Source: a virus
Taxonomy: Duplodnaviria > Caudoviricetes
Direction: 5' to 3' (one strand)
Virus record (IMG/VR): IMGVR_UViG_3300025836_000013
Coordinates: 1-42,266 of that record
DNA: 42,266 nt
Below are positions 21,590 through 37,348 of the stretch, piece by piece. The position numbers were made by a program, and so were the translations under genes. The number at the start of each line of letters is the position of its first letter. The stretch's first letter is position 1. The notes beneath the pieces were generated by a model that saw nothing but the letters and a program-made list of their open reading frames with translations, searched no databases and was not told the DNA's origin.

Positions 21590-21808
21590 TCAAGTGGCAT
21601 CATGGGCAATGACGAACGACGCATAGAGGGTGACGTGCTCACTGTGCTTGATCGTGGCGAGTTTGTTGATCTCTGCCAGCTGGCTTGCCGAGGCGACGAT
21701 GACAGCCTTGGTTTCGCCGTAGCGATCTGTCGTCGAGTGATCGAAGTAGCACTCGAAACAACAAAGGGCATCTGCGACGCGTTCTTGCTCTTTGGCTTTT
21801 CTAGACAT
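21590..21808 (-). CDS. Hypothetical protein
   Basis: MSRKAKEQ start overlaps the stop of the upstream leader ORF. Confidence 0.55.
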   Translation of the reverse strand: MSRKAKEQERVADALCCFECYFDHSTTDRYGETKAVIVASASQLAEINKLATIKHSEHVTLYASFVIAHDAT

Positions 21809-21905
21809 GCAGAAAACCCCCACGCTCTACGGGCGACAGCGGGCCGGACCGTATATACATGGGGGATCTGCTTTGCAGAACAAAAACCTCAGCATACTCG
21901 TTCAA
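21801..21905 (-). CDS. Putative 34-aa leader peptide (TTG start)
   Basis: GGGGG SD 5 nt before TTG; MNEYAEVFVLQSRSPMYIRSGPLSPVERGGFLHV; crosses the terminator hairpin. Confidence 0.45.
   Translation of the reverse strand: MNEYAEVFVLQSRSPMYIRSGPLSPVERGGFLHV
21813..21865 (-). terminator. Putative intrinsic terminator / attenuator in late leader
   Basis: CCCCCATG...CGTGGGGG stem followed by TTTT. Confidence 0.55.
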
Positions 21906-21911
21906 GTAGAC

Positions 21912-21927
21912 CCCCAAGTCTGCTAGT
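21912..21927 (-). promoter_or_regulatory. SD-overlapping repeat, site A
   Basis: ACTAGCAGACTTGGGG; 16/16 complementary to the 29914-29929 RNA. Confidence 0.85.
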
Positions 21928-21938
21928 GTTGCGCTTAC

Positions 21939-21967
21939 AGTCTAGGAGCGCACAGACGCATTGACAA
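21939..21967 (-). promoter_or_regulatory. Putative sigma70 late promoter
   Basis: TTGTCA-17 nt-TAGACT. Confidence 0.6.
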
Positions 21968-22508
21968 GTAATTCAGAATGCCCTATTGTCACGACCGGCC
22001 TTTTGCCAAAGCGTGACCCACAACGCGCGACGTACAGCGTCTTTGCACATACGGCCTCGGGGAAAGTCGGGTATACGCCAACATAGTGCTTCCCAACGCG
22101 CACCCGGAATTTCGACCCTGTTTTCCAGATGCCGGGCATGTCAGTCGGCGCGTACAAGACCTTTTGTTTTGGTTCCTGTTTTTGTTTTGGTACAGGTCCA
22201 GGACTCGGTTTTAGGTGCGTCCAGCAGGAGAACTTCACGATTGTCGCTTTCCTGCCGTCTTCCATTGGTTCCCGGTCGAGCTGGTACAGGAGGTCGTACT
22301 TGTGGCTCAATCCTCTGATAATGACGCCGGAAACCTCGACCTCGTTCTTCTCCTTGATCTGATCTCGGAGAGCGTGCACGGCATCACGTGCATTGCCTCC
22401 CTGACATTCCAGTACCACGAACCTCCCATGCTGTTCAACAGTCAGGAACCCTTGCACCTGTAATAAGGGTTCTGGATCCGTTTTACGTTCATGCCACTTT
22501 CCACCCAT
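21942..22508 (-). CDS. Protein with C-terminal AP2-like DNA-binding domain
   Basis: TDMPGIWKTGSKFRVRVGKHYVGVYPTFPEAVCAK; GGAGG RBS. Confidence 0.6.
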   Translation of the reverse strand: MGGKWHERKTDPEPLLQVQGFLTVEQHGRFVVLECQGGNARDAVHALRDQIKEKNEVEVSGVIIRGLSHKYDLLYQLDREPMEDGRKATIVKFSCWTHLKPSPGPVPKQKQEPKQKVLYAPTDMPGIWKTGSKFRVRVGKHYVGVYPTFPEAVCAKTLYVARCGSRFGKRPVVTIGHSELLVNASVRS

Positions 22509-22622
22509 GCCTGCCTCCATCGTTTCACTGTGCACGTACCTTTTCTATGGAAGAATCCCTCGCCCGATTTCATAGCCCGCTTTGCCTTGGTTGGGTTGGG
22601 GATGATGAACTATTCTAAAGTC

Positions 22623-23222
22623 TCAGTCAAATGGCAGGGCGTCGTCAAGAACATCGGCGGTCAGTCCGGCATAGGCCAAGGCAAGGGCGTTTATCTGTTC
22701 CATGCCGAGCCCGGTGTTGTGATCGTGACTCACGCTTTGGTGCAGGGTATGAGGAATGAACACCCCGTGGTCTATGTCCAAATGGTGAAAATCGCTGCCG
22801 GGGAAGGATTGATTCAGGGGCAAGAAGCCTAACTCACGGCGCTTGGCCTTGTGCTTGGCATTGAATACTCGTTTTCCGCCTTTCCAGTTATTATTCAACG
22901 GCCCCGTTTGTCCTACAGACATCTTCGCCCGAGTCGCATCAGATTTCGGCTTTGACATTTTTGCCCGCGTTGCATCAGATTTCGGTTTTCCCGTCTGCGC
23001 AGCAGACATCTTTGCCTTGGTTTCTTCCGAATGATGATGCCCAAGGCACTGAGTATTCCCCATTTTGGCGACAGACATCTTTGCGCGCGTTTCGGAAGAA
23101 CACTTACGTCTGGTCTGCGATATAGACATCCTTGCTCGTGTCTCGGATAACACCATATGCCCCAAACATGCCGCTGATAATTTTGCTCGCTGTTCATCGG
23201 TCATATGCTGTCCCTTTCTCAT
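22623..23222 (-). CDS. NUMOD3-repeat homing endonuclease (third member of 9049/16173 family)
   Basis: HHSEETKAKMS, tandem KPKSDATRAKMS, WKGG, GFLPLN...FHHLD...LHQSVSH. Confidence 0.8.
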   Translation of the reverse strand: MRKGQHMTDEQRAKLSAACLGHMVLSETRARMSISQTRRKCSSETRAKMSVAKMGNTQCLGHHHSEETKAKMSAAQTGKPKSDATRAKMSKPKSDATRAKMSVGQTGPLNNNWKGGKRVFNAKHKAKRRELGFLPLNQSFPGSDFHHLDIDHGVFIPHTLHQSVSHDHNTGLGMEQINALALAYAGLTADVLDDALPFD

Positions 23223-24394
23223 GCCTCTACCTCTGCTCCGACGTACTCCTTGCATTTCATTCGTGGCCCGTCACACCGGATTGGTCCAGGGCAGTCCTCA
23301 CAGCGCTCTCCGATCAGCTGGCACTTGAAGCACAGACAGCCGTTCTCTAGGCAGTGCTGTTCTTTGCCTTCTTCTGTCCTGAAGTCAGGGCAGTTGCCGA
23401 TCTTGCCGCCATGCTTCAGACAGTGCTCGTAGCCTTTGCAATCATGGCAACTCTTGCCGCGGTTGGCACAGACCTGGCAGAGACAGTCGGAACAATCCCA
23501 TAACATCTTACCGTCGGAGTACCACTTGCCGTCCAGGAGGACAGCCATTGGCTCTTTCGTGGATTCGATGGGCTCTGACAGATCTGGTTCGATCGTCCTT
23601 CCAAGAGATTCTAGCGCCTGGCAGCAGCGCCAAACGCCATTGATCGCATCCCAGCCATCGATGTAGTACCCTTTGCCATAGCAGCCACGTTTCAGATGCT
23701 TGTATCCATGCAGTGGGCAGCGGTAGAATCCTTTGATGCCCAGCAGATCATAGCCGCCAGTCTCCATGACCATCACTGCCGGCTTTGGCTTCTTCGCCTT
23801 GGCGGGCTTCGGGAAAGGCTGAGTGAGAGGAACGAAGTTGTCATCGCAGATCACGCCGTCCACGGTCACGACGTTGTCGATGATACTGATGTTGCGCCAT
23901 TTGCCGTCCAGTTGCACGGCACTGGGTTCCTCGGTTGGCTTCTTTGTAGGTTCAATAGGATTCAGATCGCATCGAACCCTGGGCGCCCAGACCAACTCTT
24001 TGCGGAGATCGCAGACGTGATCGCATTTCTTGCAGGCAGCCTCCGACATCCACGGGATAGGCCCGCTATAGTCAAGACAGCCAGTTATGCTGATAGGCCG
24101 ATTGCACAAGCGGTAACGAACCCCGCCCCGCTGTCCCATCTCAGGGCCGTCCTTGCATTCTTGGTAACGGTCGCAGGCCATACACATGCAATTGGCGCAA
24201 GCAGGGAACTTACCCTTTACGCAACGAAGGAGGTAATAGACCTTGCTGCTCTTGTCGAGAGCCTCCGTTTCGCAGGTTTCGTACTGTGGACAGTCCTGAT
24301 GACAAACGCAACGATCAGAGAGGACCTTGACCTGGTCAATAGGCTCAGGGAATAGACTGCCCTCCCAGCCGGATACTTCGGGACCGCGTCTCAT
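23219..24394 (-). CDS. Cys-rich, probably multi-zinc-binding protein
   Basis: 391 aa with many CxxC/CxCxxC clusters; ATGA coupling on both sides. Confidence 0.7.
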   Translation of the reverse strand: MRRGPEVSGWEGSLFPEPIDQVKVLSDRCVCHQDCPQYETCETEALDKSSKVYYLLRCVKGKFPACANCMCMACDRYQECKDGPEMGQRGGVRYRLCNRPISITGCLDYSGPIPWMSEAACKKCDHVCDLRKELVWAPRVRCDLNPIEPTKKPTEEPSAVQLDGKWRNISIIDNVVTVDGVICDDNFVPLTQPFPKPAKAKKPKPAVMVMETGGYDLLGIKGFYRCPLHGYKHLKRGCYGKGYYIDGWDAINGVWRCCQALESLGRTIEPDLSEPIESTKEPMAVLLDGKWYSDGKMLWDCSDCLCQVCANRGKSCHDCKGYEHCLKHGGKIGNCPDFRTEEGKEQHCLENGCLCFKCQLIGERCEDCPGPIRCDGPRMKCKEYVGAEVEA

Positions 24395-24687
24395 GGTGTC
24401 GCCTTCAACAAGTCCGTGACGTCTCGAATGATGACGGCGTTCGGCTCGAGATAACCATCTGCATCCTTGCGCTCATTCCAATGACTGAACATGTACATCC
24501 GACCGTCTTTGACAAAGACCCGCTCAGCACACCACACACTGATTTTCTCAATCTGGTACAGCTTGTCAGCCTGCTTCGGCGTTGTCTCCACTTCGATATA
24601 TCCGGCATTGCTGAGGACACTGTTGACCGTACATTCGCCATGCCGGAGAACAGAAACGAGCTCAGAGGCAAATAACTCGTCACTCAT
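24391..24687 (-). CDS. Hypothetical protein
   Basis: 98 aa; ATGA overlaps on both sides. Confidence 0.65.
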   Translation of the reverse strand: MSDELFASELVSVLRHGECTVNSVLSNAGYIEVETTPKQADKLYQIEKISVWCAERVFVKDGRMYMFSHWNERKDADGYLEPNAVIIRDVTDLLKATP

Positions 24688-25322
24688 GGCGTCACCCGTG
24701 GGATGTACAAGACCTCCACGCGCACGTTGCGTCTGCGGCCTTTTGTTTTATCGTGGCACTTCTTACACAGCGTCTTTCCATTATCAACGTCAAAGCGTTC
24801 ATCGGGGTAATCTGCAAACCCATGGACGTGATGTGCTTCAAAGATGACTGCATGACCGTTACCACTATGCTCTCCACACTCTTGGCAGGTATAGTCATCG
24901 CGCTTGAAAACAGCATCACGCCAAACTAGATATTTGGGGCTGCTGCGAGCAATGTGGTTCTCAGACATCGTTCCGCCTTTCCATGCAGGATTCCGTTCAC
25001 GTTTCACATCTGCATGATTAGCAGAAAGAACGGTGCGCGCTTCAGGCGACCACGGAATACCTTTATTCCAAGGAACACGACCGACACAATGCTTGTTTCC
25101 CATCCTTGATGCATAACAACATTCAGGACTGCAATACTGGCGCTGTCTATTGCGAGAGAAAAACGCCTTACCACACTGACGACAGATGTGTTCTTCGTTT
25201 ATGGTAGGGTCAAGGTGCGAGGCAGACATCTTGAGCCGAGCCTCAACAGATACCGCATGTCCCATGTGTACCAAAGAATCTATTGACCGCTGTTCGTCCG
25301 ACATGTGCTGTCCGAGTTTCAT
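24684..25322 (-). CDS. NUMOD3-type / zinc-finger HNH homing endonuclease (paralog of 12070-12645)
   Basis: CRQCGK...YCSPEC, WKGG, VFKRDDYTCQECG...AHHV...NGKTLCKKCH. Confidence 0.88.
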   Translation of the reverse strand: MKLGQHMSDEQRSIDSLVHMGHAVSVEARLKMSASHLDPTINEEHICRQCGKAFFSRNRQRQYCSPECCYASRMGNKHCVGRVPWNKGIPWSPEARTVLSANHADVKRERNPAWKGGTMSENHIARSSPKYLVWRDAVFKRDDYTCQECGEHSGNGHAVIFEAHHVHGFADYPDERFDVDNGKTLCKKCHDKTKGRRRNVRVEVLYIPRVTP

Positions 25323-25471
25323 TGACTTTCACCTGACCTTTCTTGACCGTCTGAGATGGTGGTGGCAACGGGGTCAAGTCCGTATTCGCGCGGGTTATAG
25401 GGCCGCACTAGCCACCATTGAATTATATCACAAAGGGCACACGAATCAAGCGGAAACAGGGGTGCCATCAT
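25319..25471 (-). CDS. Small hypothetical protein
   Basis: 50 aa; ATGA-coupled on both sides. Confidence 0.45.
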   Translation of the reverse strand: MMAPLFPLDSCALCDIIQWWLVRPYNPREYGLDPVATTISDGQERSGESQ

Positions 25472-25989
25472 TTCGCCTTCGGGATATACAACACCTGGAC
25501 TTCGACATTCTTTCTGCGTCCCCATTGCCGCGCGGCTTCAGTCGACCACAGGAACACGTCCAGTTTCAACCCCTTAATGGCCGAACCGGTATCGGTTATT
25601 TCGCAGACGTCTCCGTTGTTGTACCCGTGCACGATGACCAGCGAACCGAACGGCAGAATCCGCACATCTGCGGCGATACCGCCGACTCTCACTCGCTGTC
25701 CAGAGGCAGTCATAAGAGGGTTCCCATCGCACTCTGCTACCGTCGGACTGTAACATGAAACCTCCATGAACAGGACCTTGATAGGTTCTGAGTACCTTGT
25801 CGTGACCTTCTCGAGGGGAAGGGCAGGAGGCAGCCGGCGAGCTGAACGGAAGTTGACGATGTCCCCGGCAGTTGCCTGACTAGGTGCCAGGAGTGAGAAC
25901 ATCATGACCAGCAACAGGGCAAGCGCCACGACGAGCAAGATGATGGTGACCTGGCTGTAGTCGACGCGGCGTGAATGTCCCCACTTCAT
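25468..25989 (-). CDS. Membrane-anchored 3D-domain protein (lytic-transglycosylase-like)
   Basis: N-terminal TM; TASG...IAADVRILPFGS...DTGSAIKGLKLDVF...ARQWGRR. Confidence 0.88.
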   Translation of the reverse strand: MKWGHSRRVDYSQVTIILLVVALALLLVMMFSLLAPSQATAGDIVNFRSARRLPPALPLEKVTTRYSEPIKVLFMEVSCYSPTVAECDGNPLMTASGQRVRVGGIAADVRILPFGSLVIVHGYNNGDVCEITDTGSAIKGLKLDVFLWSTEAARQWGRRKNVEVQVLYIPKAK

Positions 25990-26135
25990 TTCTTCGCCTT
26001 CGCCTTCTTGGCTTTCTTGCGGGACTTCAACTTGAGATGCTTAAGGCCCTTGGCAACTTGTGCAGCCGAGAGCCCTTCCCGCCAGAACCTCATGTAGGGA
26101 GGCTCGTAGGGCCTGAGCTGATCTCCGGAAGTCAT
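25986..26135 (-). CDS. Small basic protein (49 aa, not in ORF track)
   Basis: MTSGDQLRPYEPPYMRFWREG...KKAKKAKAKK; ATGA overlaps on both sides. Confidence 0.6.
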   Translation of the reverse strand: MTSGDQLRPYEPPYMRFWREGLSAAQVAKGLKHLKLKSRKKAKKAKAKK

Positions 26136-26644
26136 GTCTTGCTCCATGTGTGCCCGGTGAGGACGCGATACTCGGCTTTGAGACGTGCGTTCTCGGACTC
26201 GTAGAAGGCCTGCCGATCATGGAGCAGCGCTATGGACTCAGCCCACAGTTGGTCGAGCTCGCCTTCGCCAAGTTGCGCGCCCGCCCAGACAAGCTGCTCC
26301 TTGCGACTCAGACGCTCCCACCAGCCGTGATGACAGTCCGAACACAGTAAGACAGCATTGCGCGAATTCCAGCGTGTGCCGAGGAGTTCCCGGACGAAGA
26401 TATGGGACCACTGGGCGTTGCGTCCTTCGACATGCTGATGGCAATGACGACAGACCATGCCGTCCCGGAAGCGAACGATGTCGCCACAGATCTTGTCGTT
26501 CTGATTTCGTAGGGCCACAAGACCGTACCTGCGTATCCGCGCAGCAACGACTCCCCTGTTGACCCCTAACGTTTCGACGCCCCCCTCAGAGCTTCGAGAA
26601 CTTTTCCGACGTAATGGTGTTCGACGTAACTCCGTTCTTGTCAT
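26132..26644 (-). CDS. NinG/Rap-like HNH nuclease
   Basis: IVRFRDGMVCRHC...SHIFVR...TRWNSRNAVLLCSDCH. Confidence 0.75.
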   Translation of the reverse strand: MTRTELRRTPLRRKSSRSSEGGVETLGVNRGVVAARIRRYGLVALRNQNDKICGDIVRFRDGMVCRHCHQHVEGRNAQWSHIFVRELLGTRWNSRNAVLLCSDCHHGWWERLSRKEQLVWAGAQLGEGELDQLWAESIALLHDRQAFYESENARLKAEYRVLTGHTWSKT

Positions 26645-26653
26645 CTGAGACCT

Positions 26654-26665
26654 CCAAGTCTGCTA
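26654..26665 (-). promoter_or_regulatory. SD-overlapping repeat, site B
   Basis: TAGCAGACTTGG(AGG) upstream of ATG 26644. Confidence 0.8.
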
Positions 26666-26728
26666 TTTTTGATGCTATACCCCTACTGGTATGCGACGCT
26701 CAACAATGCGTCGTTCCTCACTTTCCTA

Positions 26729-27031
26729 TTAGGTGATAATCGGCAGGATACCCCCTACCTTTGCTGCCTGAATGACAGGTTCAGTATTCATGCTTGGTTC
26801 AGATCTAACTTCCGCAATTCGGGCTTTGCGGACCAGGGACGGATCGAAGTCCACTCTGTCGGCCCATTCCGCGCGCTTGCCTTTGTTCCACGTTGATACC
26901 GGGGTCAAGTACCCCACAACCCTGGAATATACGAGGCACCCCACACGTTTCTCTACTGGAACAGCGATGACACCCTGGTAGAGAAGATCGTGGCTCTCGT
27001 TCTCTGTCCAACCTTCGGGTAGATCGGTCAT
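26729..27031 (-). CDS. Stand-alone NrdD C-terminal (glycyl radical) domain protein
   Basis: VYSRVVGYLTPVSTWNKGKRAEWADR matches the anaerobic RNR C-terminal motif. Confidence 0.8.
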   Translation of the reverse strand: MTDLPEGWTENESHDLLYQGVIAVPVEKRVGCLVYSRVVGYLTPVSTWNKGKRAEWADRVDFDPSLVRKARIAEVRSEPSMNTEPVIQAAKVGGILPIIT

Positions 27032-27738
27032 GCCACTACCTCACAGAGAAAGTCAAACACTCGCCTCTGCCAATACAGTTGAAAAACGCAATGACCGTTG
27101 TCCAGCTGCACGGGTAGTGTCTTGGCGTAAATCTTGCCCCGGTCGCTTGGAACGTACTCGTCTCCGACCCTGTACTGCAGCCCAGCCAACTTCATCAGTC
27201 GGTTGACTTCTTGTCCAGAAAGGCGAGGGTTGAACATGCGTCCAATTTGAGTAGGCGTGACAAATTCCTCGCTCGCGTTGGAAGGTACCGGCAGGGCAGG
27301 GATTCCTTTGATGACCTTGTCCACTCTCAGGTTCACCGCGGCGATTGCCTGGTCCTGACGCTCGAGATCATCAACAAGACCCCTGAGGATACCGTAGACG
27401 TTCTTGGAGCTCGGCAAACTGTAGCTGCCGGTCTTGCGGATCTGAGGAAGGACCGTGCCGGTGACCCACACCCGAAAGGCTCGAGCCTCGGCCTTGTCAC
27501 TCCGAAGAACCAGAGCATACATGCCCGACTCGTTGACGATGACCATGCTCTGTTCACCTCCACGGGTATCTATCCGAATGATACCCTTCTCAGCATCCTC
27601 GAGCTTGTTGGTTGCCTGACTCGGGTTCGCGAGATTTAGCGTGTCACAGATGTCTTTCGCCACAAACCACGGCTCGCCCTCCATGGTGGCTGTCCGTATC
27701 TGATGTGCGTTGTACTGCCATACCTGTAGTTCTTCCAT
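27028..27738 (-). CDS. BRO-N domain antirepressor
   Basis: GEPWFVAKDIC...VNESGMYALVLRSDKAEARAFRVWVT..VLPQIRKTGSY; ATG 27738 after GGAGG. Confidence 0.9.
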   Translation of the reverse strand: MEELQVWQYNAHQIRTATMEGEPWFVAKDICDTLNLANPSQATNKLEDAEKGIIRIDTRGGEQSMVIVNESGMYALVLRSDKAEARAFRVWVTGTVLPQIRKTGSYSLPSSKNVYGILRGLVDDLERQDQAIAAVNLRVDKVIKGIPALPVPSNASEEFVTPTQIGRMFNPRLSGQEVNRLMKLAGLQYRVGDEYVPSDRGKIYAKTLPVQLDNGHCVFQLYWQRRVFDFLCEVVA

Positions 27739-27747
27739 GTGTTGCCT

Positions 27748-27760
27748 CCCCAAGTCTGCT
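27748..27760 (-). promoter_or_regulatory. SD-overlapping repeat, site C
   Basis: AGCAGACTTGGGG(AGG) upstream of the antirepressor ATG. Confidence 0.8.
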
Positions 27761-27772
27761 TGTATTTCTGTA

Positions 27773-28570
27773 CTACTTCTGGCGCATACTCTCGCCAGTG
27801 AAATTGATCCAGCTTGCCATCTCCAAGAGCCGGTCAGTGATACGCTCGAAGCCGACACGCTCTTTGAAGTCCTTCCAGCTCAGGTTCGTTGTCATGACGA
27901 TAGGTAGCTCGCGCCCATAGCGATACTCGACGAACTCCTCCATCTGTGCCAGCGCGAATGGCTCGACGTATTCCCGGCCAAAGTCGTCCACGAAGAAGTA
28001 TCGCGCGTCCTGATTGTCGATGGACCCTCCGTTGTGCAAGGCCGTGAAGATGCCAGCCGAACGCCAGAAGGCGAAGAGACTCGCCCGGCGAAGGGAATGC
28101 TCGATGCCCATGCACGCCCGTTCCGCGAGTGTCCGGGCAAGGTAGGCCATTGCTGTCGTCTTCCCAGTTCCTTTAGGTCCTGCCAAGATGACGGAGCTCG
28201 CCTTGTCCAATGTCGCCTTCTTTTGGATCAGAGCAGGGTCACAGTGGAGATAACGCGAACCATAGACGGACTCGAACGCCTTCATGACTTCGTCCGGTAC
28301 CGATGCCCTGCTGACGAGTGTCCTGTCCTGGTCGGCCTTGTCAAACAGGTTGTCATGCTCCCACTTTGGACATGCTGGGAGAAGAGCACACCAGTCCTTC
28401 CACGTCGAAGCATTTGTAAGCTTCACACGCCAGAGGTTGGAGGCCCCGACATAGGACGTCTGCCACTGAGTCAGATCATCAGTCAGACCTTCCTCGGCGT
28501 TACGAACGAGGCGGGCGAGGATCTCCTGTGTAGAGTCCTTGCGAATTTCTGTTGTCTCAATCATGGACAT
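27773..28570 (-). CDS. DnaC/IstB-like AAA+ helicase loader
   Basis: GPKGTGKT, FFVDDFGRE, MTTNL, ERITDRLLEM, GESMR; follows initiator. Confidence 0.9.
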   Translation of the reverse strand: MSMIETTEIRKDSTQEILARLVRNAEEGLTDDLTQWQTSYVGASNLWRVKLTNASTWKDWCALLPACPKWEHDNLFDKADQDRTLVSRASVPDEVMKAFESVYGSRYLHCDPALIQKKATLDKASSVILAGPKGTGKTTAMAYLARTLAERACMGIEHSLRRASLFAFWRSAGIFTALHNGGSIDNQDARYFFVDDFGREYVEPFALAQMEEFVEYRYGRELPIVMTTNLSWKDFKERVGFERITDRLLEMASWINFTGESMRQK

Positions 28571-29420
28571 GGTCCTCAGCTCCGTCGAAGTCGTGTTCAT
28601 TCGAGACAGATGTATGGCGTTGAAGGGTTTCACGTTTCGGAGGGTTAGTCAGATAGCTCTCGAACTTTGTGCCAAACAGGGTCTCAGGCCGAAGGTAGGT
28701 CTGCATCTTCGCGTCACCATACCAAGCGAGGACCATGTTGTCGATGACGGTTTTGAAGTTGTCCAGGTTAAAGCCTTCATGCCATCTTGTCCTGATCAGT
28801 GCCTGTGTCTTGTCAGTTGATGGCTTGTACATGGTGTGTGCCTTAGCATTCAGATAGGAGATGATCTCGGGGTAGGGTATGGCGGGCGTTTTCTGCCCGA
28901 CAATGGTTTTATCTTCTATTGGATTCTCTTCTATTGGATTCAGAAAGGATTCAGAAGAAGGCGCAATTTGCGCGGATTGCTGCGAGTTGCGGCGGATTGC
29001 TGCGAGTTGCGGCGGATTGCTGCGAGTTGCGGCGGATTGCTGCGAGTTGTCACAACGTGCCGCTAACTGCTGCAAAGTGCTATCGGTCGTGTCAGGCAAT
29101 GGACATTTGTGACGCTTGCTCCGGATGCGTTGATGCTGCTCCCACTTTCCAACCTGAAGGTAGGCTTTGCCGTCGACCTCGTACATGGTGATTAGGCCGA
29201 CCTTCGCCAAGTCATGGAGCCAGGCGTCCACCTGTTCCGGTGTCAGGTCGGTGACACGCAGAGGATAGCAGCGGGCGAGAACCACGATAGGCCTCGCGTC
29301 CATGCACCCATAGTCATCCGCTGATACGAGAATCCGGAACCACAGACATTCCTGTTCCGGACACAGTTCGTTCAGCGTCTCAGATGTGAGGATTGAATCA
29401 GAAAGGATTCGACTAGGCAT
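28557..29420 (-). CDS. Replication initiator (replisome organizer) with conserved phage C-terminal domain
   Basis: N-terminal ADDYG...WEQHQ; C-terminal EIISYLN...YLRPETLFGTKFESYL; internal iterons. Confidence 0.88.
   Translation of the reverse strand: MPSRILSDSILTSETLNELCPEQECLWFRILVSADDYGCMDARPIVVLARCYPLRVTDLTPEQVDAWLHDLAKVGLITMYEVDGKAYLQVGKWEQHQRIRSKRHKCPLPDTTDSTLQQLAARCDNSQQSAATRSNPPQLAAIRRNSQQSAQIAPSSESFLNPIEENPIEDKTIVGQKTPAIPYPEIISYLNAKAHTMYKPSTDKTQALIRTRWHEGFNLDNFKTVIDNMVLAWYGDAKMQTYLRPETLFGTKFESYLTNPPKRETLQRHTSVSNEHDFDGAEDHVHD
28972..29049. repeat. Iterons: ~3.9 tandem copies of GCGGATTGCTGCGAGTTGCG (probable origin)
   Basis: Perfect 20-bp tandem units inside the initiator gene, next to AT-richer TCTTCTATTGGATT x2 (28912-28940). 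Confidence 0.8.
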
Positions 29421-29484
29421 GGCACGCCTCATCAGGGCATAGTGAAACCATCCCAAGCGTTCTGTACATTGTGAAGGTCATGGT

Positions 29485-29730
29485 TCAGCGCTCGATCGAG
29501 CGAATGGCGTGCTTACAGACCAACACCGGGAAGGGGTTGACTGTGGTCTGCAGAAGGAGTTCGTATTTGGTGTAGCCACGGAGCGTTCCGTTAATGGTCG
29601 ACCCATCCAGGTACGTGATGGCGACAGTGTGGTCGACGGCGAGCTCATAGAACTCGTACTCGTTGATCTTGCCCGGCGTGGCTGGTGGTTGATTCTGAAG
29701 TTGTTTGACTTGCTGTTTCGGTTCTGTCAT
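29485..29730 (-). CDS. hfq: Hfq-like Sm-fold RNA chaperone
   Basis: VAITYLDGSTINGTLRGYTKYELLL (Sm1-like) and LVCKHAIRSI (Sm2 YKHAI-like); 81 aa; GGGAGG RBS. Confidence 0.8.
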   Translation of the reverse strand: MTEPKQQVKQLQNQPPATPGKINEYEFYELAVDHTVAITYLDGSTINGTLRGYTKYELLLQTTVNPFPVLVCKHAIRSIER

Positions 29731-29782
29731 AGGTCCTGCCTCCCATTCTGAACGGAGTGAGGCCTTGCGTCCTCGTGTCTGA

Positions 29783-29860
29783 AAAAGGAGAGAGTACCGG
29801 CGCCGTCAGATCGGCTGTCCCTTAGGAGAGAGCTACTCTCGGTCAGTAAGCCGGTACACT
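29783..29860 (-). ncRNA. Candidate structured RNA 2 / hfq leader
   Basis: GTACCGGC/GCCGGTAC closing stem with GAGAG/CTCTC and GCCG/CGGC arms, then CTCTCCTTTTT; begins at the predicted start of promoter 29866-29893. Confidence 0.6.
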
Positions 29861-29865
29861 TACGC

Positions 29866-29893
29866 ACTATATCCACGTTCATCTGCGTGTCAA
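29866..29893 (-). promoter_or_regulatory. Sigma70-type promoter P2
   Basis: TTGACA-16 nt-TATAGT. Confidence 0.7.
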
Positions 29894-29903
29894 GCCCCAT
29901 AGC

Positions 29904-29946
29904 AAAGCCCCGAACTAGCAGACTTGGGGTAAGCGACCTCGAGGCT
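29904..29946 (-). ncRNA. Candidate antisense sRNA 1 (complementary to sites A-F)
   Basis: AGCCUCGA/UCGGGGCU stem ending in U-run, enclosing CCCCAAGUCUGCUAGU with ACCCC as apical loop. Confidence 0.7.
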
Positions 29947-29951
29947 CCCCA

Positions 29952-29980
29952 ATTCTGTACAAGATTGCTGTTTTTGTCAA
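29952..29980 (-). promoter_or_regulatory. Sigma70-type promoter P1
   Basis: TTGACA-17 nt-CAGAAT; predicted start ~29946 coincides with the hairpin 5' end. Confidence 0.6.
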
Positions 29981-30043
29981 GTGAGAGTGTAAGCATCTTG
30001 CGGGCAAGGTTCCTAATCTCCTTACCTCCTAGGAGCCTAGGCG

Positions 30044-30745
30044 TCATGGCGTCTTACCGTCAAGCGATAGCATTGCCTTCGGATACCACTGGATCAAGTC
30101 TGGGGGTATCACGATCACGCTTGCCAGACTGCGCTTATGAAACACTGGAACTCCGTGTGCGATTGCCTGCTCTGTGAAACCTTCGACCCACTCGCCCTTT
30201 GGTTGCCGGTTCTTGCTCCCTGGTCCCGTCATGGCACCGATCACCAGCCAGTCGATACCACGCCAGGAGATACAGTCGGCGACATCTTCCAGTAGAGGCT
30301 CGGCGCTGAGCCATGTATGCCAGCCGGCGCAATGCAAACCCGATACCATTTCGTCCAGGGCTTCGTCCTTCGTGGTCACGGTCTGACCGAGCCACCAATT
30401 CGGCGCTACGTTGCCGTGAAGTAGGTCGTGATAGCGCTTCGGGTTCTTGGTCAAAAACAAATATTGATGCTGCGGTGCGGACCATGCCGCGTTCAGCACA
30501 TGGGTAATCCAGTCTTGTGGCACCCAGTCACCGAACAGGTCACACATGGACCCGACAAAGATACGCGAGGGCTTCTTGACCCACAACGGTTCACTCAGAC
30601 GTTCTTCGTGAAAGGTCGGCTTGAATCCGTCCGGACCTCCAAAGCGTTCAGCGATCCGGCGGGCGTAACAGTAGTCACAGCCATGCAGGCACCCCGTTAC
30701 AGGATTCCACGAGTAGTCCGCCCAGTCGATCGAAGTGCGATTCAT
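30044..30745 (-). CDS. Phage Gp37/Gp68 (DUF5131) radical-SAM-like protein
   Basis: IDWADYSWNPVTGCLHGCDYCYA, IFVGSMCDLF, LTKNP, SAEPLL, DWLVIG. Confidence 0.9.
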   Translation of the reverse strand: MNRTSIDWADYSWNPVTGCLHGCDYCYARRIAERFGGPDGFKPTFHEERLSEPLWVKKPSRIFVGSMCDLFGDWVPQDWITHVLNAAWSAPQHQYLFLTKNPKRYHDLLHGNVAPNWWLGQTVTTKDEALDEMVSGLHCAGWHTWLSAEPLLEDVADCISWRGIDWLVIGAMTGPGSKNRQPKGEWVEGFTEQAIAHGVPVFHKRSLASVIVIPPDLIQWYPKAMLSLDGKTP

Positions 30746-31146
30746 GACTGCGCCTTCAAGACCCCGCACACGAGCAGTCCCAGCGCGTCGACAAGCTTAG
30801 CATCTTGAGCTCCCGCTTCAAAGGGACGATGCAGCTGCACGACATACGCCACAGTTCCCTTGAAATCAATCCTTATCTGTTCGATACGCAGACTGCCACG
30901 GTCTCCATTCTCTGCCAACGTGCGGACCCCCATCTTCACAGCGACTTCCTTGGCGTCCAGGGAGAGCAGCCACGTCAGGAGTGTGTCGGAACGGTAGGCA
31001 CGACGTTTATTGATTGCATAGTACCACGTATCTATGCGCCATTCCTTTGTTATTGGGTCGATACCCCACATTGCATCTGGTGGTGTTACCTCAAAACCCG
31101 CATCCGCCAGACGTTTGCTAATCTCCACGCTCGTGTATTCGATCAT
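30742..31146 (-). CDS. Hypothetical protein
   Basis: 134 aa; YTSVEISKRLADAGF N-terminus; coupled overlaps. Confidence 0.7.
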   Translation of the reverse strand: MIEYTSVEISKRLADAGFEVTPPDAMWGIDPITKEWRIDTWYYAINKRRAYRSDTLLTWLLSLDAKEVAVKMGVRTLAENGDRGSLRIEQIRIDFKGTVAYVVQLHRPFEAGAQDAKLVDALGLLVCGVLKAQS

Positions 31147-31385
31147 TTCTTCTCATCCTCCTTTGGGTCAACAACTGACGTCCGAATCATCATGTACGTG
31201 CCGTCGCCCATCCCGAACTGGAAGAGAGAGGCGTCCAGTATCCGCCTGCGCTCTGCCTGAATGACAGCAGCGATGAGAGCATCAATCCTTGCGATTCCCT
31301 GAGCGTCCACAGCCGGGTTCTTGGGTAACAGCCATCGCCGTTCTTCAAGCATCTCTGCTCGCAGTTCCTCAACTGTCTGGCTCAT
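31143..31385 (-). CDS. Hypothetical protein
   Basis: 80 aa; ATGA coupling. Confidence 0.65.
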   Translation of the reverse strand: MSQTVEELRAEMLEERRWLLPKNPAVDAQGIARIDALIAAVIQAERRRILDASLFQFGMGDGTYMMIRTSVVDPKEDEKK

Positions 31386-31663
31386 GCTGTCACCTTCTTG
31401 TTCAGTTCCTGGACCACAAGCATGCGATAGTATCGCCGTGCGTTGTGGTATGGCTCAGCTCCGAAGACAGGATCGCCTTCGTCTTGCTCCTTCTGCATCA
31501 TCTTGAAGTGGTCAACTGGAATGTCCAGTGTGACTTCCTTGTCTTTAGGCATCCAGGGGACATAACAGATCCACTTCCCTTCCTCGAGGGCAAACTTCAC
31601 GCGCCAGTAGTAGCGGAAGGAGACCGTCATCTTCTCCTGCGAGGGGTTGATGTTCTCGTTCAA
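31382..31663 (-). CDS. Hypothetical protein
   Basis: 93 aa; TTG start overlapping upstream stop. Confidence 0.6.
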   Translation of the reverse strand: MNENINPSQEKMTVSFRYYWRVKFALEEGKWICYVPWMPKDKEVTLDIPVDHFKMMQKEQDEGDPVFGAEPYHNARRYYRMLVVQELNKKVTA

Positions 31664-31956
31664 GCGGTCACCTTCACGGCCTTCACCTTGCGCTCGTAAT
31701 ACCTAATCTGCCGCTGGAAGCGACGCATATCAATACGGATGTTCTTCTGCTGGAGTGCGGTCTGATACATAGGGTCAGGGAGTTTCGCCTTGTCCTCTTT
31801 GAGCCACCGTTTCACCGCTCTCAGTCGACTCGCGTACATGGTCTTCTTGTCGAACCCGCCACAACAGTTGCACTTGACGCAAATCTCGCCGTACGAGTCA
31901 TAGAGGTTCCAGCAGTGGCGGTCAACCTGCTGGTCAAGGAAGATGACCCCGTTCAT
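31660..31956 (-). CDS. Hypothetical protein with Cys cluster
   Basis: 98 aa; CWNLYDSYGEICVKCNCC. Confidence 0.65.
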   Translation of the reverse strand: MNGVIFLDQQVDRHCWNLYDSYGEICVKCNCCGGFDKKTMYASRLRAVKRWLKEDKAKLPDPMYQTALQQKNIRIDMRRFQRQIRYYERKVKAVKVTA

Positions 31957-32531
31957 GCCCGTCTCCGTTCCTGCTGCACCTGTTCGCCCACGAGCAAGAA
32001 GTCGGCAGCCGCGTCAAGATCGCTCATATCGGAGAGGACTTTGTCAAGAAGGCCAGGTTCTCGCGTCGCCGCGATCTGGTGGTCCGGATATTGCCCATCC
32101 TGGTAGCGGACGCTCGCGAGATACTCTGTGCCATCCTTGTTGAACCGTTTCACCGGGAAGTGCATACCCTGGTCGAAGCCGATCTCGACGAACTGGTTGG
32201 GGTACGTCTCGAGAGCTTCCACCAGCGGGCGCCACTTTGCAGCCAAGTCCATAAAACGGAGCATCACGGCCGTAGTGCCTTGGAGTCTGAGCCGCGTTTC
32301 CTTAAGAGCATGCGCATAGCCACCGGCTGCGTGAAACTTGCCAGCCTCGAATGAACGCTTGCGCTCGGCACGGCGTCTTGCCTCTGCCAGAACGTTGTTA
32401 GCTTGTAGCCGGCTTAGTTCTTCTGCGAAGTCGGCAGCGTGCGCCTCAGCATCTTCGCAGCGACACATCAGCGATTCGTACTCGGCGAAGGGCATGATCA
32501 CGAGCTTACCGAGGCGCTTCATCGTGGCCAC
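31953..32531 (-). CDS. Hypothetical protein
   Basis: 192 aa, helical N-terminus, coupled to neighbours; start could be 32522. Confidence 0.65.
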   Translation of the reverse strand: MATMKRLGKLVIMPFAEYESLMCRCEDAEAHAADFAEELSRLQANNVLAEARRRAERKRSFEAGKFHAAGGYAHALKETRLRLQGTTAVMLRFMDLAAKWRPLVEALETYPNQFVEIGFDQGMHFPVKRFNKDGTEYLASVRYQDGQYPDHQIAATREPGLLDKVLSDMSDLDAAADFLLVGEQVQQERRRA

Positions 32532-32764
32532 CTGTGATAATCGCCGCAGTCGTCGTCTCGTTTCTCCCGGTCTGGACGGATACGAGCAGGACGGGCGGCG
32601 ATGTCCTGCTCTCGTAATAACGCCCCCGAAGGGGTTACTACCTCCTTCAAGGCGAGGTCGATCGCTCTGACGTCCTCTTTGGCCTGGAACAGCTTGCCTG
32701 CTTCATAGGCTTGATTGACCATCTTACGCACGATGTACCGGGGAATGAACAGTGGAAGGTCCAT
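32519..32764 (-). CDS. Hypothetical protein
   Basis: MDLPLFIPRY start after GAGG. Confidence 0.6.
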   Translation of the reverse strand: MDLPLFIPRYIVRKMVNQAYEAGKLFQAKEDVRAIDLALKEVVTPSGALLREQDIAARPARIRPDREKRDDDCGDYHRWPR

Positions 32765-32765
32765 G

Positions 32766-33038
32766 TCAGTCCCTCGGATCCTGCCCGGCGACGAAGGTCT
32801 TGACTTCGCTTTCGTCTGGACAATCCTGTAGCAAGCGGTCCAGAATGACGTCAACTGGTTCCTGCCGTTCTACAGCAAGCGTCTCAGTGAGTTTCTTGTT
32901 TCGGTTGATCTCAGCCACGTAGCAATTGTGCAAGTGCCGTACTTGGAACTCGTAACGGTCAGAAGTTCTCACGTGTTCGATAACCGCCCCACAGAAAGCC
33001 GCGATGACTATGACGGCGAGCATAAACCAACCGCTCAT
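32766..33038 (-). CDS. Hypothetical protein with N-terminal TM/signal segment
   Basis: WFMLAVIVIAAFCGAVI; GGGAGG RBS. Confidence 0.65.
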   Translation of the reverse strand: MSGWFMLAVIVIAAFCGAVIEHVRTSDRYEFQVRHLHNCYVAEINRNKKLTETLAVERQEPVDVILDRLLQDCPDESEVKTFVAGQDPRD

Positions 33039-34072
33039 TTAAACCTCCCGGCGAACTCTGCGGCGTCCATAGGTTCGTAGTTGTCCTGCAGCTGACAAAT
33101 GAGCTGTGCGGCGTAATCGGCATCAATGGTGACCTGGCGCCCGTCCATCGTTACAACCGGCGGGTCCGAGTGGACGTTGATCCCCTGGATGCCGAGCTTG
33201 GCGAACTCTTCAGCCGTCTTGTCCGATGCGAGAGCCTCGATAGCTGCCAGTTGGTCACGCTTCGCAGGGGGTCCAGCGGTCTTGGGCATCGACTCTTCGA
33301 GGAGCGTTCCCAATGCCTCCTCCGCCTTGTCCTCTTCATCTGGCCTTGATTCATCCGGGGCAGGCAGAGCGACCATTTCGCTTACGAGGGAAGGACTCGT
33401 TTGTGCCAGTTCCTGCAGCGAGTGTTCATACTGGATGCTGAGGATCCTGACCGTCGTCTTCACCAAGCCTCTGGCAGCGTCCAACCGATTGACTTCCCGC
33501 TGGACCAGCTTGAGCTTTAAGGGAACCCATGCAATGCGCCCGCCGAGAGCGGCCTTCATGAGGTTCAGGTCGGCCAGCAACTCACGGATGCCATTGTATG
33601 CACCGGTGTCGATTTGATAAACGCCCAAGCCGGGTGCCTTGTACAGCCAGATCATGAGAGAGCCAATCGGCGAGCATCCTTTTTCTTCGACAACGCCGGT
33701 CGTCGTATCCGTCTTCTGGTTAAACTTGCACTCCCTGGGCCCGAGACATTCCACTTCGACGCGTTCGGCCGTCTTCAGGTCCAGGCGCATAGCCTTGACG
33801 CCATCACCGCGACAGAGCGGGGCAACACTCGACTGGCCATATAGCTTGTACCAGTGAGGAAGTACCTGGTCGATGTCATTGGACGCAAACATCACGTCCA
33901 GCTCAGTCGGCTTCTCGCCACACACCGCTTTCAGTTCTTCTGGCAGGACGAAGTAGTCTGTCGCCTGTGGATAGCCCTTCTTGTCCTTCGCGTCGCGGAA
34001 CTTCCTGATACCCAGGTGGATCTTCCCCAAGCGGGGCATCCGCTGGTCCTGATCGATGCTCTTGATTCCCAT
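33035..34072 (-). CDS. Gp3-like (recombination directionality factor-like) putative recombination protein
   Basis: MPRLGKIHLG...YPQATDYF...LCRGDG...GVYQIDT pattern recalled for this family. Confidence 0.65.
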   Translation of the reverse strand: MGIKSIDQDQRMPRLGKIHLGIRKFRDAKDKKGYPQATDYFVLPEELKAVCGEKPTELDVMFASNDIDQVLPHWYKLYGQSSVAPLCRGDGVKAMRLDLKTAERVEVECLGPRECKFNQKTDTTTGVVEEKGCSPIGSLMIWLYKAPGLGVYQIDTGAYNGIRELLADLNLMKAALGGRIAWVPLKLKLVQREVNRLDAARGLVKTTVRILSIQYEHSLQELAQTSPSLVSEMVALPAPDESRPDEEDKAEEALGTLLEESMPKTAGPPAKRDQLAAIEALASDKTAEEFAKLGIQGINVHSDPPVVTMDGRQVTIDADYAAQLICQLQDNYEPMDAAEFAGRFK

Positions 34073-34078
34073 ATTTCC

Positions 34079-34094
34079 CCCCAAGTCTGCTAGT
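34079..34094 (-). promoter_or_regulatory. SD-overlapping repeat, site D
   Basis: ACTAGCAGACTTGGGG(GG) upstream of ATG 34072; 16/16. Confidence 0.85.
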
Positions 34095-34116
34095 GTGGTA
34101 CTAATTCTTCAGGTAG

Positions 34117-34566
34117 TTACTTCTTGCAAGACTCCAATATAACCCATCCACTTTTACCAAAATAATCACCAGACTCTATCCGCACTTGCCATGCCGCAAA
34201 ACTCGCACCGATAACAAGTGCCTTGGTTCCCGCATCCACAATATAAAGCTGCCCGTTCGCCTCCATTTCTCCTAGTCCCAGGTAATCCTTGGCAATCGAA
34301 AGCTGTGTGCATTCGTCAAAATCGGCTTTTGTCGGACTCACGAAACCAGTGACGGTGATGGTGTCTCCAACCTTAATATCGTTCGAAGCAGGCTGCGTAG
34401 TCGTTACTGGAGCAGTCGTCGGTGGTGCCGAGAAACTGTTCGCGCACGACCGCATAAGTGACATGCCAATGATGAAGACAAAGAGAAATACGACGACGCC
34501 AACAATCATGGCGCCCTTTGCTACAGACGGTGGAAGTGTTTCAAGATCTTGCTTCTGTTTGTTCAT
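34117..34566 (-). CDS. Single-TM membrane protein with P/T linker and SH3-like C-terminal domain
   Basis: MIVGVVVFLFVFIIGMSLM; APPTTAPVTTT; WQVRIESG...GWV; AAGGAG RBS. Confidence 0.7.
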   Translation of the reverse strand: MNKQKQDLETLPPSVAKGAMIVGVVVFLFVFIIGMSLMRSCANSFSAPPTTAPVTTTQPASNDIKVGDTITVTGFVSPTKADFDECTQLSIAKDYLGLGEMEANGQLYIVDAGTKALVIGASFAAWQVRIESGDYFGKSGWVILESCKK

Positions 34567-35029
34567 GACGTCTCTCCTTTGCTTGCCATTCTGCAAGCGT
34601 CCTGTTGCCCTTCGAGCTGTTGCAATGAGAACATGCTGGAACCACGTTATCGGCTGAGTGCTTTCCACCTTTCGACAAGGGGATCACATGATCCAAGGTC
34701 AACTTGGCTTCCTTGTCGCAATAGGCGCAATGGCCGCTCGCTTCCGCGAGGATCGTGAGCCATTCCGTTGACGTCAGCATTTCGCTGATGGGCGTATTGG
34801 CGTACTTCAGAGAGCGCCACTTCGAACCAAAAACGGCTCTGCTTTCGAGGTTTGCCTTCTGCCATCTAGAAACGCTTGCTCTGTTGTGTTCGGGATGTTC
34901 CCTCTGATAGTTGGCATCGCAAACCCTATTCGCTCCTAGACGGCATTCTGTGCAATATTTTTGATTGGGAGCCGTCGGAAGATATTCCTTGCCACAGACC
35001 CGGCAACGTTTCAACCTATAAGCCTTCAT
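34541..35029 (-). CDS. Zinc-finger HNH endonuclease
   Basis: CRVCGK...YCTEC; CAYC...LDHVIPLSKGGKH..DNVVPACSHCNSSKG. Confidence 0.9.
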   Translation of the reverse strand: MKAYRLKRCRVCGKEYLPTAPNQKYCTECRLGANRVCDANYQREHPEHNRASVSRWQKANLESRAVFGSKWRSLKYANTPISEMLTSTEWLTILAEASGHCAYCDKEAKLTLDHVIPLSKGGKHSADNVVPACSHCNSSKGNRTLAEWQAKERRHEQTEARS

Positions 35030-35646
35030 CTATCTCCCCGAGTCTGCTTGGCTGCTGAAACTACTCTCTTGCTTGTTCGAGCTCCTTTCTTGTGATCCCC
35101 GTGAGCCGGTGCAGTTTTGTCATGTTCTCTGGACTGGGCATGCTCAGACCCGTCTCCCAGAACTGGATCGTTACCAGCGAGACTTTCAAGGACCGCGCCA
35201 TCGCCATCTGCGACAGTCCCTTGTTGATCCTCCAAACTTTGAGTGGATGTTCTGTTGCCATCGTTGACCTCCTGGATCAATATATGCAATGCTGTTGTCG
35301 CTTCATCTTGAAACCAATGCGCCCAGGCTTCGGCCTCCGTGTCGAACCCAAAGGGGTCTCTCCCCTTACTATTGCAAACATAGTACTGCTTTGTGTAGTG
35401 CTTGTCGAACACGCAGCGAAGTTCGGAGTCGCGGGTTAAGTAGTCGGACCATGGCAGATCGGTTAGTTCCACGTCTTGAACGCTGTAGTAATTCGAATGA
35501 CGAATCCCCTCACCGATCCAGAAGGTTACCGTTAAAGGAGACTCGGAACCTTGGATAATCTGTGTGACGAAACCATAGAGGCCGTCCGAGGTCGAACCGT
35601 CGCGAACTATAACAACTGCGTGTAGCCAATGTCGGAGTTCGCTCAT
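35026..35646 (-). CDS. Hypothetical protein (C-terminal part overlaps the HTH gene)
   Basis: MSELRHW start coupled to upstream stop (TGATG). Confidence 0.5.
   Translation of the reverse strand: MSELRHWLHAVVIVRDGSTSDGLYGFVTQIIQGSESPLTVTFWIGEGIRHSNYYSVQDVELTDLPWSDYLTRDSELRCVFDKHYTKQYYVCNSKGRDPFGFDTEAEAWAHWFQDEATTALHILIQEVNDGNRTSTQSLEDQQGTVADGDGAVLESLAGNDPVLGDGSEHAQSREHDKTAPAHGDHKKGARTSKRVVSAAKQTRGDR
35036..35048 (-). promoter_or_regulatory. SD-overlapping repeat, site E (one mismatch)
   Basis: AGCAGACTCGGGG(AG) upstream of ATG 35029. Confidence 0.7.
35061..35261 (-). CDS. XRE/Cro-like HTH transcriptional regulator
   Basis: LKVWRINKGLSQMAMARSLKVSLVTIQFWETGLSMP; AGGAGGT RBS. Confidence 0.88.
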   Translation of the reverse strand: MATEHPLKVWRINKGLSQMAMARSLKVSLVTIQFWETGLSMPSPENMTKLHRLTGITRKELEQARE

Positions 35647-35771
35647 CAGTCCACCAGCCCCCAGCGAATCAACCACTGAATTTTGTGGAAAACGAGCAAG
35701 ATGCCGACACCGATACCTACGATGAACGCCGCGCCCGCTGCGGTGACTATTGCAAGAACGGTTGCGCCCAT
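35646..35771 (-). CDS. Small membrane protein (41 aa)
   Basis: Hydrophobic helix; TGATG coupling at both ends. Confidence 0.55.
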   Translation of the reverse strand: MGATVLAIVTAAGAAFIVGIGVGILLVFHKIQWLIRWGLVD

Positions 35772-35947
35772 CACGATGCCCTTCCGAATGTCCCGGCAAG
35801 ACGTGACTGCGGATGAAAGGCCATGACACTCCATGCCTGTTTGAGACATTGCTGACGTTCAGAGCGCTTTGCAGCACGAACGTAACGGTTGTAACCGTTT
35901 GGCGTGTTGTGGTGGGACGTACCATTGCTTGTCATAACTCTCTTCAT
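35771..35947 (-). CDS. First early ORF (58 aa, not in ORF track)
   Basis: MKRVMTSNGTSHHN...FGRAS; GGGGG SD; stop overlaps next ATG. Confidence 0.55.
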   Translation of the reverse strand: MKRVMTSNGTSHHNTPNGYNRYVRAAKRSERQQCLKQAWSVMAFHPQSRLAGTFGRAS

Positions 35948-35954
35948 TCTAGGC

Positions 35955-35970
35955 CCCCAAGTCTGCTAGT
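35955..35970 (-). promoter_or_regulatory. SD-overlapping repeat, site F
   Basis: ACTAGCAGACTTGGGG 16/16; 21 nt identical with site A. Confidence 0.85.
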
Positions 35971-37319: not shown

Positions 37320-37348
37320 GGACTCCCCTTTTCCCAAGTCCATTGGTA

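What the first reader, a model, noticed from the sequence alone, without database searches (positions are those of the whole stretch)
21912..35970. Candidate phage regulon: one antisense sRNA, six SD-overlapping targets and a phage-encoded Hfq
Seen: the mRNA-sense motif (ACT)AGCAGACTTGGGG occurs at 21912-21927, 26654-26665, 27748-27760, 34079-34094, 35036-35048 (1 mismatch) and 35955-35970. Each time its G-run forms or abuts the Shine-Dalgarno just upstream of a start codon: late leader, NinG-like nuclease, BRO antirepressor, Gp3-like recombination gene, HNH, and first early ORF. The only opposite-orientation copy I found (29914-29929) is in a promoter-driven hairpin ~180 nt upstream of an hfq-like gene. 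Because all genes are on the minus strand, that transcript is complementary to all six leaders. Known: P1 c4, P4 CI and N15 CA RNAs repress antirepressor/lytic operons by pairing, but their targets are local; Hfq catalyses trans sRNA pairing. Inference: a single trans-acting sRNA, possibly with its own chaperone, silences early, middle and late lytic entry points and may replace a CI repressor, which is not evident here.
Basis: partly seen in the sequence, partly recalled or inferred. Interest (0 to 1): 0.93.

Follow-up and report, generated by a model that had tools for sequence, protein, structure and literature searches.

The report
Phage hairpin RNA masks lytic starts
An uncultured phage carries a small promoter-driven hairpin whose loop mirrors a tag on the ribosome-binding sites of six of its own genes, and loop and tags change together across relatives, so one RNA likely silences the lytic programme in place of a repressor protein.

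Summary
In detail: six mRNA-sense copies 6-9 nt before start codons and one reverse copy. Relatives support the RNA reading. Six phages (window plus five) carry the reverse copy in a hairpin loop just after a TTGACA promoter. Their stems differ in sequence but each pairs best with itself (rank 1 of 720 permutations), and one variant contig shows double-sided stem changes. Loop and target sites fall into three matching seed classes. No integrase or S24-type repressor was found; ParA points to a plasmid prophage. Against: two motif-bearing relatives lack the hairpin, and no transcript was examined. The Hfq-like gene is real but accessory: none of the five hairpin-bearing relatives has it. It works like P1 C4 or P4 CI RNA immunity but is not in those Rfam families. 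The scan noted similar hairpin-and-tag systems on other DNA. The unexplained Cluster K mycobacteriophage SAS motifs also have a reverse copy in a hairpin loop in 4 of 7 phages checked.

The parts
29952..29980 (-). P1: sigma70-type promoter TTGACA-17-CAGAAT, predicted to drive the hairpin RNA
   Evidence: TTGACA-17-(C/T)A(G/T)(A/G)(A/G)T at the same place in 6 of 6 cassettes
29904..29948 (-). Candidate antisense RNA: 11-pair stem closing a loop of about 23 nt
   Evidence: compensated stems in relatives
29914..29929 (-). Seed in the loop, complementary to the target tags (class A)
   Evidence: no substitution listed at 29916-29936 among laid contigs of 4 runs
29866..29893 (-). P2: promoter TTGACA-16-TATAGT ahead of hfq-like and replication genes
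   Evidence: the TTGACA is invariant in 6 of 6 cassettes
29790..29860 (-). Second structured leader after P2, role unexplained
   Evidence: z -2.29; no Rfam match
29485..29730 (-). Hfq-like gene, accessory
   Evidence: absent from relatives
35955..35970 (-). Target 1: SD of first early ORF (start 35947), after promoter 36034-36007
35036..35048 (-). Target 2: SD of HNH gene (start 35029), one non-wobble mismatch, weakest of the six
34079..34094 (-). Target 3: SD of Gp3-like gene (start 34072)
27748..27760 (-). Target 4: SD of BRO/Ant gene (start 27738), first gene after the replication pair
26652..26665 (-). Target 5: SD of NinG-like gene (start 26644), after a promoter-like TTGAGC-18-TATAGC at 26703-26674 read from the sequence
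21912..21927 (-). Target 6: SD of the late leader ORF, after promoter TTGTCA-17-TAGACT (21967-21939)
21801..21905 (-). Late leader ORF (34 codons) running through a long hairpin at about 21871-21809
   Evidence: a 34-49 codon ORF 5-8 nt after the tag in 6 of 6 late leaders examined
37333..37341 (-). Weak seventh site before the small gene and parA; follows the seed class in relatives
36382..37125 (-). ParA ATPase, sign of a plasmid prophage
   Evidence: no tyrosine integrase

Best explanation
A hairpin behind a strong promoter carries a loop complementary to a 13-16 nt tag over the ribosome-binding site of six phage genes, and it likely works as a trans-acting antisense RNA that blocks their translation and so would hold the phage in a plasmid-prophage state. 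Shown: the tags, their spacing, the hairpin, the compensated stems and the three matching loop/tag classes. Inferred: P1 makes an RNA of about 45-60 nt; its C-rich loop pairs with the G-rich SD; blocking the first gene of the early, NinG and late units, and the BRO gene just after the replication pair, cuts downstream expression by polarity, while the untagged replication genes stay on from P2; at the late promoter the blocked leader ORF would let the downstream hairpin stop transcription; seed classes would act as immunity groups. Hfq is an optional passenger. How the RNA is switched off is unknown.
For: 6 of 8 motif-bearing phages whose region before the replication gene was in view carry the reverse copy there, always 22-27 nt after a promoter -10. 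Own 5' and 3' arms pair at -15.4 to -26.4 kcal/mol, the best of 720 permutations; 41 sense-strand matches have no such stem (mean -5.8, lowest -12.5); 0.35% of random window positions reach the window's value. One variant contig seen in two runs changes both partners at three stem positions, 29942/29910, 29938/29914 and 29937/29915. In all six cassette phages the sites pair best with the seed of their own class. 10 of 15 departures from the cognate seed at 25 sites are G.U-compatible, 7 of 8 at inner positions 2-10. The six tagged starts rank 1-6 of 64 starts by duplex energy. Three unrelated promoter-plus-seed matches have neither stem nor targets. No S24 repressor or tyrosine integrase in 5 of 5 records; the single HTH_3 protein does not follow seed class (86% to a class B phage, 50% to a class A phage).
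Against: Two relatives keep tags but show no reverse copy: G001/G002 (five perfect tags; about 38.6 of about 40.8 kb in view) and G010/G009. Covariation of all sites is also expected of a protein operator. Both departures in the window itself are not wobble-compatible, and four of the inner G.U cases come from two class-B-like sites of one phage, so they are not independent. Fold z-scores are unremarkable in 5 of 6 hairpins, and L059 prefers a pairing with a downstream self-copy. There is no clear U-tract terminator after the stem. The HNH site scores no better than background windows. The family is small and recombining, and window and L066 arms are nearly the same.
Confidence: 0.7

Rival explanations
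1. The tag is an asymmetric DNA operator or stoperator for a phage repressor; the reverse copy is one more operator between P1 and P2.
For: Asymmetric 13-bp sites bound by a monomeric repressor exist in Cluster A mycobacteriophages (PMC9283540). Three tags lie just after promoters. Two relatives keep tags without the hairpin.
Against: It does not explain a compensated stem round the reverse copy only, the fixed 6-9 nt spacing to start codons or the G.U bias. No candidate binder follows seed class: the HTH does not, and the only protein whose presence tracks class A (25986-26135) is absent from classes B and C.
Confidence: 0.1
2. The RNA is real but is a timing or superinfection-exclusion add-on, not the lysogeny switch; the tags are kept by exposure to RNA made by co-resident relatives or by another factor.
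For: The cassette is missing in 2 of 8 motif-bearing relatives that still have ParA; a more distant relative, L079, has neither tags nor hairpin.
Against: Both cassette-less relatives keep remnants of the sequence between cassette and replication gene, as expected of derived loss; tags mark early, middle and late entry points alike and spare the replication genes.
Confidence: 0.15
3. The tags are sites for an RNA-binding protein or a strong extended SD, and the reverse copy acts in cis on its own transcript (attenuator between P1 and P2).
For: A partial self-copy follows the stem in L059, L062 and L063 and can pair with the loop.
Against: The self-copy is weak in the window; other starts in the genome use ordinary SDs without the tag; the loop matches distant tags over 13-16 nt and changes with them.
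Confidence: 0.05

Closest known systems
C4 antisense RNA of phages P1/P7 (immI)
   Same: Plasmid prophage; phage antisense RNA needed for full repression of an antirepressor operon (PMC8198154 passages). Seed changes separating P1 and P7 immunity are recalled, not read.
   Different: C4 acts on its own c4-icd-ant operon beside the protein repressor C1; here one plain hairpin matches six start sites over 14 kb, and no Rfam match was found.
CI RNA of satellite phage P4 (and N15 CA RNA, recalled)
   Same: RNA-based lysogeny control (PMC3632133 passages); termination after pairing with the leader is recalled and matches the inferred late-leader step.
   Different: P4 targets (seqA/seqC) are local to one leader and the RNA is a processed multi-stem (recalled); here targets are SDs of separate operons.
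Start Associated Sequences (SAS) of Cluster K mycobacteriophages and Cluster EF Microbacterium phages
   Same: 13-nt asymmetric SD-overlapping motif, one orientation, with a single reverse copy in four K1 phages; function unknown (PMC3203893 passages and Fig. S3; PMC7302621, PMC11373665, PMC12699233 passages).
   Different: Unrelated sequence; 11-19 copies; Cluster K phages integrate and have a protein repressor; no RNA partner is proposed in the passages seen.
Stoperators of Cluster A mycobacteriophages
   Same: Asymmetric 13-bp sites across the genome linked to immunity (PMC9283540).
   Different: DNA sites for a protein; no hairpin-borne reverse copy is part of that model.
P22 sar, lambda OOP and aQ, BTP1 STnc6030
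   Same: Phage antisense RNAs that block translation or exclude superinfection (PMC12197685, parts 1-2 of 6).
   Different: Each has one main target and is described as antisense to that locus; none covers several operons through a shared tag.

Membership tests
C4 / P4 CI antisense RNA (Rfam C4) | Match to the Rfam covariance model | tested here: not met
   No Rfam match in the window at E <= 1; nothing relevant in L066 or L076 at E <= 5
C4 / P4 CI antisense RNA (Rfam C4) | Targets confined to the RNA's own operon leader | tested here: not met
   Targets lie from 21.9 to 36.0 kb in separate units
C4 / P4 CI antisense RNA (Rfam C4) | Antisense control of an antirepressor gene | tested here: inconclusive
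   One tag is at the SD of a BRO/Ant gene; repression itself untested
C4 / P4 CI antisense RNA (Rfam C4) | Processing by RNase P from a precursor (recalled) | not testable with these tools
   No RNA data
Hfq-dependent trans sRNA | Hfq-fold protein available | tested here: met
   Pfam E 0.0015, below cut-off; Atlas TM 0.67-0.72 to Hfq models
Hfq-dependent trans sRNA | Chaperone co-occurs with the RNA | tested here: not met
   Absent from 5 of 5 other cassette-bearing phages in the DNA held
Hfq-dependent trans sRNA | Rim arginine patch needed for annealing (PMC3753642 abstract) | tested here: not met
   The segment aligned with the Hfq helix and rim reads ELAVDHT, no arginine; the rim position is recalled
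Hfq-dependent trans sRNA | 3' intrinsic terminator with U-tail | tested here: not met
   No terminator-like site at the hairpin
Cluster K SAS | Asymmetric 13-nt SD-overlapping motif in one orientation, 3-9 nt before starts | tested here: met
Cluster K SAS | SAS consensus sequence | tested here: not met
   Different sequence
Stoperator | Cognate DNA-binding repressor that varies with the site | tested here: not met
   The only HTH_3 protein does not follow seed class; repressors of unknown fold are not excluded
Stoperator | Protein binding to the site as dsDNA | not testable with these tools
   Needs a binding assay

The most novel reading that the evidence does not exclude
A full-size temperate phage-plasmid family runs lysogeny and superinfection immunity with one hairpin RNA and no repressor protein: a genome-wide SD-tag regulon whose seed variants define immunity groups, with cassette-less relatives as natural clear or cheater forms. 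The same logic would explain the SAS motifs of Cluster K mycobacteriophages through their overlooked reverse copy.
Probability: 0.4. Interest if true: 0.92.

Novelty: new variant of a known kind. Interest (0 to 1): 0.8.

Why it matters
It would show that a phage can place early, middle and late operons under one small RNA through a shared tag at ribosome-binding sites, with specificity set by two or three seed bases: an RNA counterpart of repressor-operator immunity groups, and a natural set of orthogonal riboregulators. It also gives a direct test for an open question: papers from 2011 to 2025 call the role of Cluster K SAS motifs unknown, and their reverse copy sits in a compensated hairpin loop in 4 of 7 phages checked, in a host that can be grown.

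Tried and rejected
Expression: no RNA holder listed. Host: two GTDB scans found no relative and ParA homologues carry no organism names; host not identified. Single-protein locus searches with Hfq-like and Gp3-like proteins found nothing. The pattern scan gave 42 stretches; only the 9 from the G001/G002 phage were related, the rest were set aside as chance. L008, L010, L011 are single unrelated matches. Rfam: nothing. MAFFT did not put the divergent stems in register, so no column-wise covariation count was made; the arm-permutation test replaced it. Broad laying of contigs added nothing on the cassette. Hfq relatives are few and carry no context, so no test of Hfq/hairpin co-occurrence outside this family. 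No structure or complex prediction was run. In 3 of 7 Cluster K phages (Amohnition, TClif, Hurricane) the homologous hairpin lacks an exact anti-SAS loop. Earlier-finding look-ups by place and sequence were empty.

Full report
Setting. The window is a 42,266-base virus record, rated 100% complete, of a tailed phage with all recognised genes on the minus strand: terminase, portal, capsid and tail genes, a replication initiator with an IstB-like loader, BRO/Ant, Gp3-like, several HNH/NUMOD3 genes and ParA. No tyrosine integrase and no S24 (CI/LexA-type) domain were found in it or in four related records, while the controls rang. One 66-aa HTH_3 protein is present. A plasmid prophage is the inference. 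Runs that hold at least half of the region's words are peat metagenomes (laid). The host was not identified.

Observation. The motif has seven matches at up to 2 mismatches, against a shuffle mean of 1.02. Six are in mRNA sense and end 6-9 nt before a start codon. The seventh is reversed, at 29914-29929, 22 nt after the -10 of TTGACA-17-CAGAAT and just before a second promoter, TTGACA-16-TATAGT. It folds as the loop of an 11-pair stem with CCCAA open at the tip. Alone the fold is no better than shuffles. Of 64 hand-listed starts (a few off by 1-2 nt), the six tagged ones rank first by duplex energy, -32.2 to -22.7 kcal/mol against a mean of -12.7 for the rest; the HNH site is level with background windows in a genome-wide scan.

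Relatives. Searches with a NinG-like alignment and a replication-protein alignment fetched related phages. Five carry a reverse copy at the same place: L066 and L076 with the window's seed (class A), L059 and L062 with a seed changed at two inner positions (class B), and L063 with a third (class C). Their start-site tags changed with them: L059 has six perfect class B tags and L063 has class C tags at its BRO and late sites. In all six cassette phages the tags pair best with their own class of seed. A weak seventh site before the partition operon also follows class.

RNA or DNA site? Covariation alone would also fit a protein operator, so I tested RNA-specific signs. First, the stems differ in sequence, yet own arms pair best of all 720 assignments; 41 sense-strand matches, chance ones included, have no comparable stem, and three unrelated promoter-plus-seed matches lack both stem and targets. 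Second, among contigs of four runs laid on the cassette, no substitution is listed at 29916-29936, and one variant seen in two runs changes both sides of three stem positions; the laying needs likeness, so invariance of the seed is partly favoured by method. Third, 10 of 15 departures at 25 tags keep G.U pairing, 7 of 8 at inner positions; these are not all independent, and both departures in the window are true mismatches. Fourth, the HTH protein does not follow class. Together these favour an antisense RNA.

What speaks against it. G001/G002 has five perfect class A tags and no reverse copy at up to 4 mismatches of the 16-mer in about 38.6 kb in view, of a unit of about 40.8 kb judged from the repeat spacing. 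G010/G009 has class B tags and no reverse copy. Both keep remnants next to the replication gene that suggest derived loss, and both lack the DUF5131 gene that flanks the cassette in five others; that reading is inference. L079, more distant, has neither tags nor hairpin. No transcript was examined.

Hfq. The 81-aa protein is Hfq-like by Pfam (below cut-off), weak PDB sequence matches and Atlas structure. It has no hit in 18 relative loci, sits behind P2, and lacks arginines in the segment aligned with the rim, which PMC3753642 (abstract) reports as needed for annealing. A 13-16 nt perfect match from an open loop should not need it. I treat it as accessory.

Mechanism, with the inferred steps marked. 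P1 would make a short hairpin RNA. Its loop would pair with the SD tag and block ribosome loading at the first early gene, the HNH and Gp3-like genes, BRO/Ant, the NinG-like gene and a late leader ORF. That ORF is present 5-8 nt after the tag in 6 of 6 late leaders and runs through a long conserved hairpin, so blocking it could stop late transcription. The replication pair is untagged and has its own promoter, and the BRO tag sits right after it, which fits a state with plasmid replication on and lytic genes off. Seed classes would be immunity groups. The off switch is unknown.

Comparison. It works like P1 C4 and P4 CI RNA control (PMC8198154 and PMC3632133, passages; finer details recalled) but is not a member: no Rfam match, one plain hairpin, targets in separate operons. 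The review PMC12197685 (parts 1-2 of 6 read) lists no phage RNA with such a shared-tag regulon in those parts. The closest anatomy in print is the Cluster K SAS (PMC3203893, passages and supplement file 3), whose single reverse copy was noted without explanation; later papers still call the role unclear (passages). I checked that reverse copy: the region is shared by 146 mycobacteriophage records, unannotated in many, and in Angelica, Anaya, Niklas and Amelie the anti-SAS sits in the loop of a hairpin whose own arms pair best of 24 assignments; three more distant phages have the hairpin with a different loop. This is a lead, not a result. Literature searches showed no description of this phage family or of this reading of SAS in the listings and passages seen; the library lacks most subscription journals, including the original P1, P4, N15 and ZoeJ papers, and other supplements were not read. 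The scan's own notes list similar hairpin-and-tag candidates in other phages; these are unchecked and were not used as support.

Verdict. Observation confirmed; antisense-RNA regulon likely (0.7); Hfq not a core part; repressor replacement plausible but unshown. New variant of a known kind, interest 0.8.

Noticed in passing
L093:8135-8147 (Angelica HM152764 58634-58646); L094, L097, L099: The reverse SAS copy of Cluster K1 mycobacteriophages lies in the loop of a compensated hairpin in a region unannotated in many records; exact anti-SAS loop in 4 of 7 phages checked.
   Followed up: partly
window 29790-29860; L059, L063, L076 after P2: A second structured leader follows P2, with related but different forms in relatives; no Rfam match.
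   Followed up: partly
L059:7034, L063:4990, L064:52 (approximate): The replication initiator appears to start at ACG behind a GGAGG SD in three relatives, where others have ATG.
   Followed up: no
window 25986-26135: A 49-aa lysine-rich protein after NinG is present in class A relatives and absent from classes B and C.
   Followed up: partly
L059, L062, L063, L064 NinG start: Class B and C phages have a second tag copy at or just inside the NinG start, and a partial self-copy right after the hairpin.
   Followed up: partly
window 25449-25322; L062:6015-6115; L066:1037-1137: HNH/NUMOD3 genes come with their own promoter and a structured leader predicted to sequester the SD.
   Followed up: no
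window 37725-37774 and 37400-38650: Five perfect 10-nt tandem repeats in a long non-coding stretch before the partition operon, a candidate origin or centromere.
   Followed up: no
window 30070-30000 and 36160-36120: CTAG and GACGC-rich short repeats lie upstream of both P1 and the early promoter; possible sites for a protein that controls the RNA's promoter.
   Followed up: no
window 35026-35646 and 35061-35261: The HTH gene overlaps, in another frame, the 3' third of the upstream ORF; the same overlap is seen in G001.
   Followed up: no
window 21961-21989 (+) and 35973-36001 (+): A plus-strand promoter diverges from the late promoter, and a plus-strand terminator-like hairpin abuts the early tag.
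   Followed up: no
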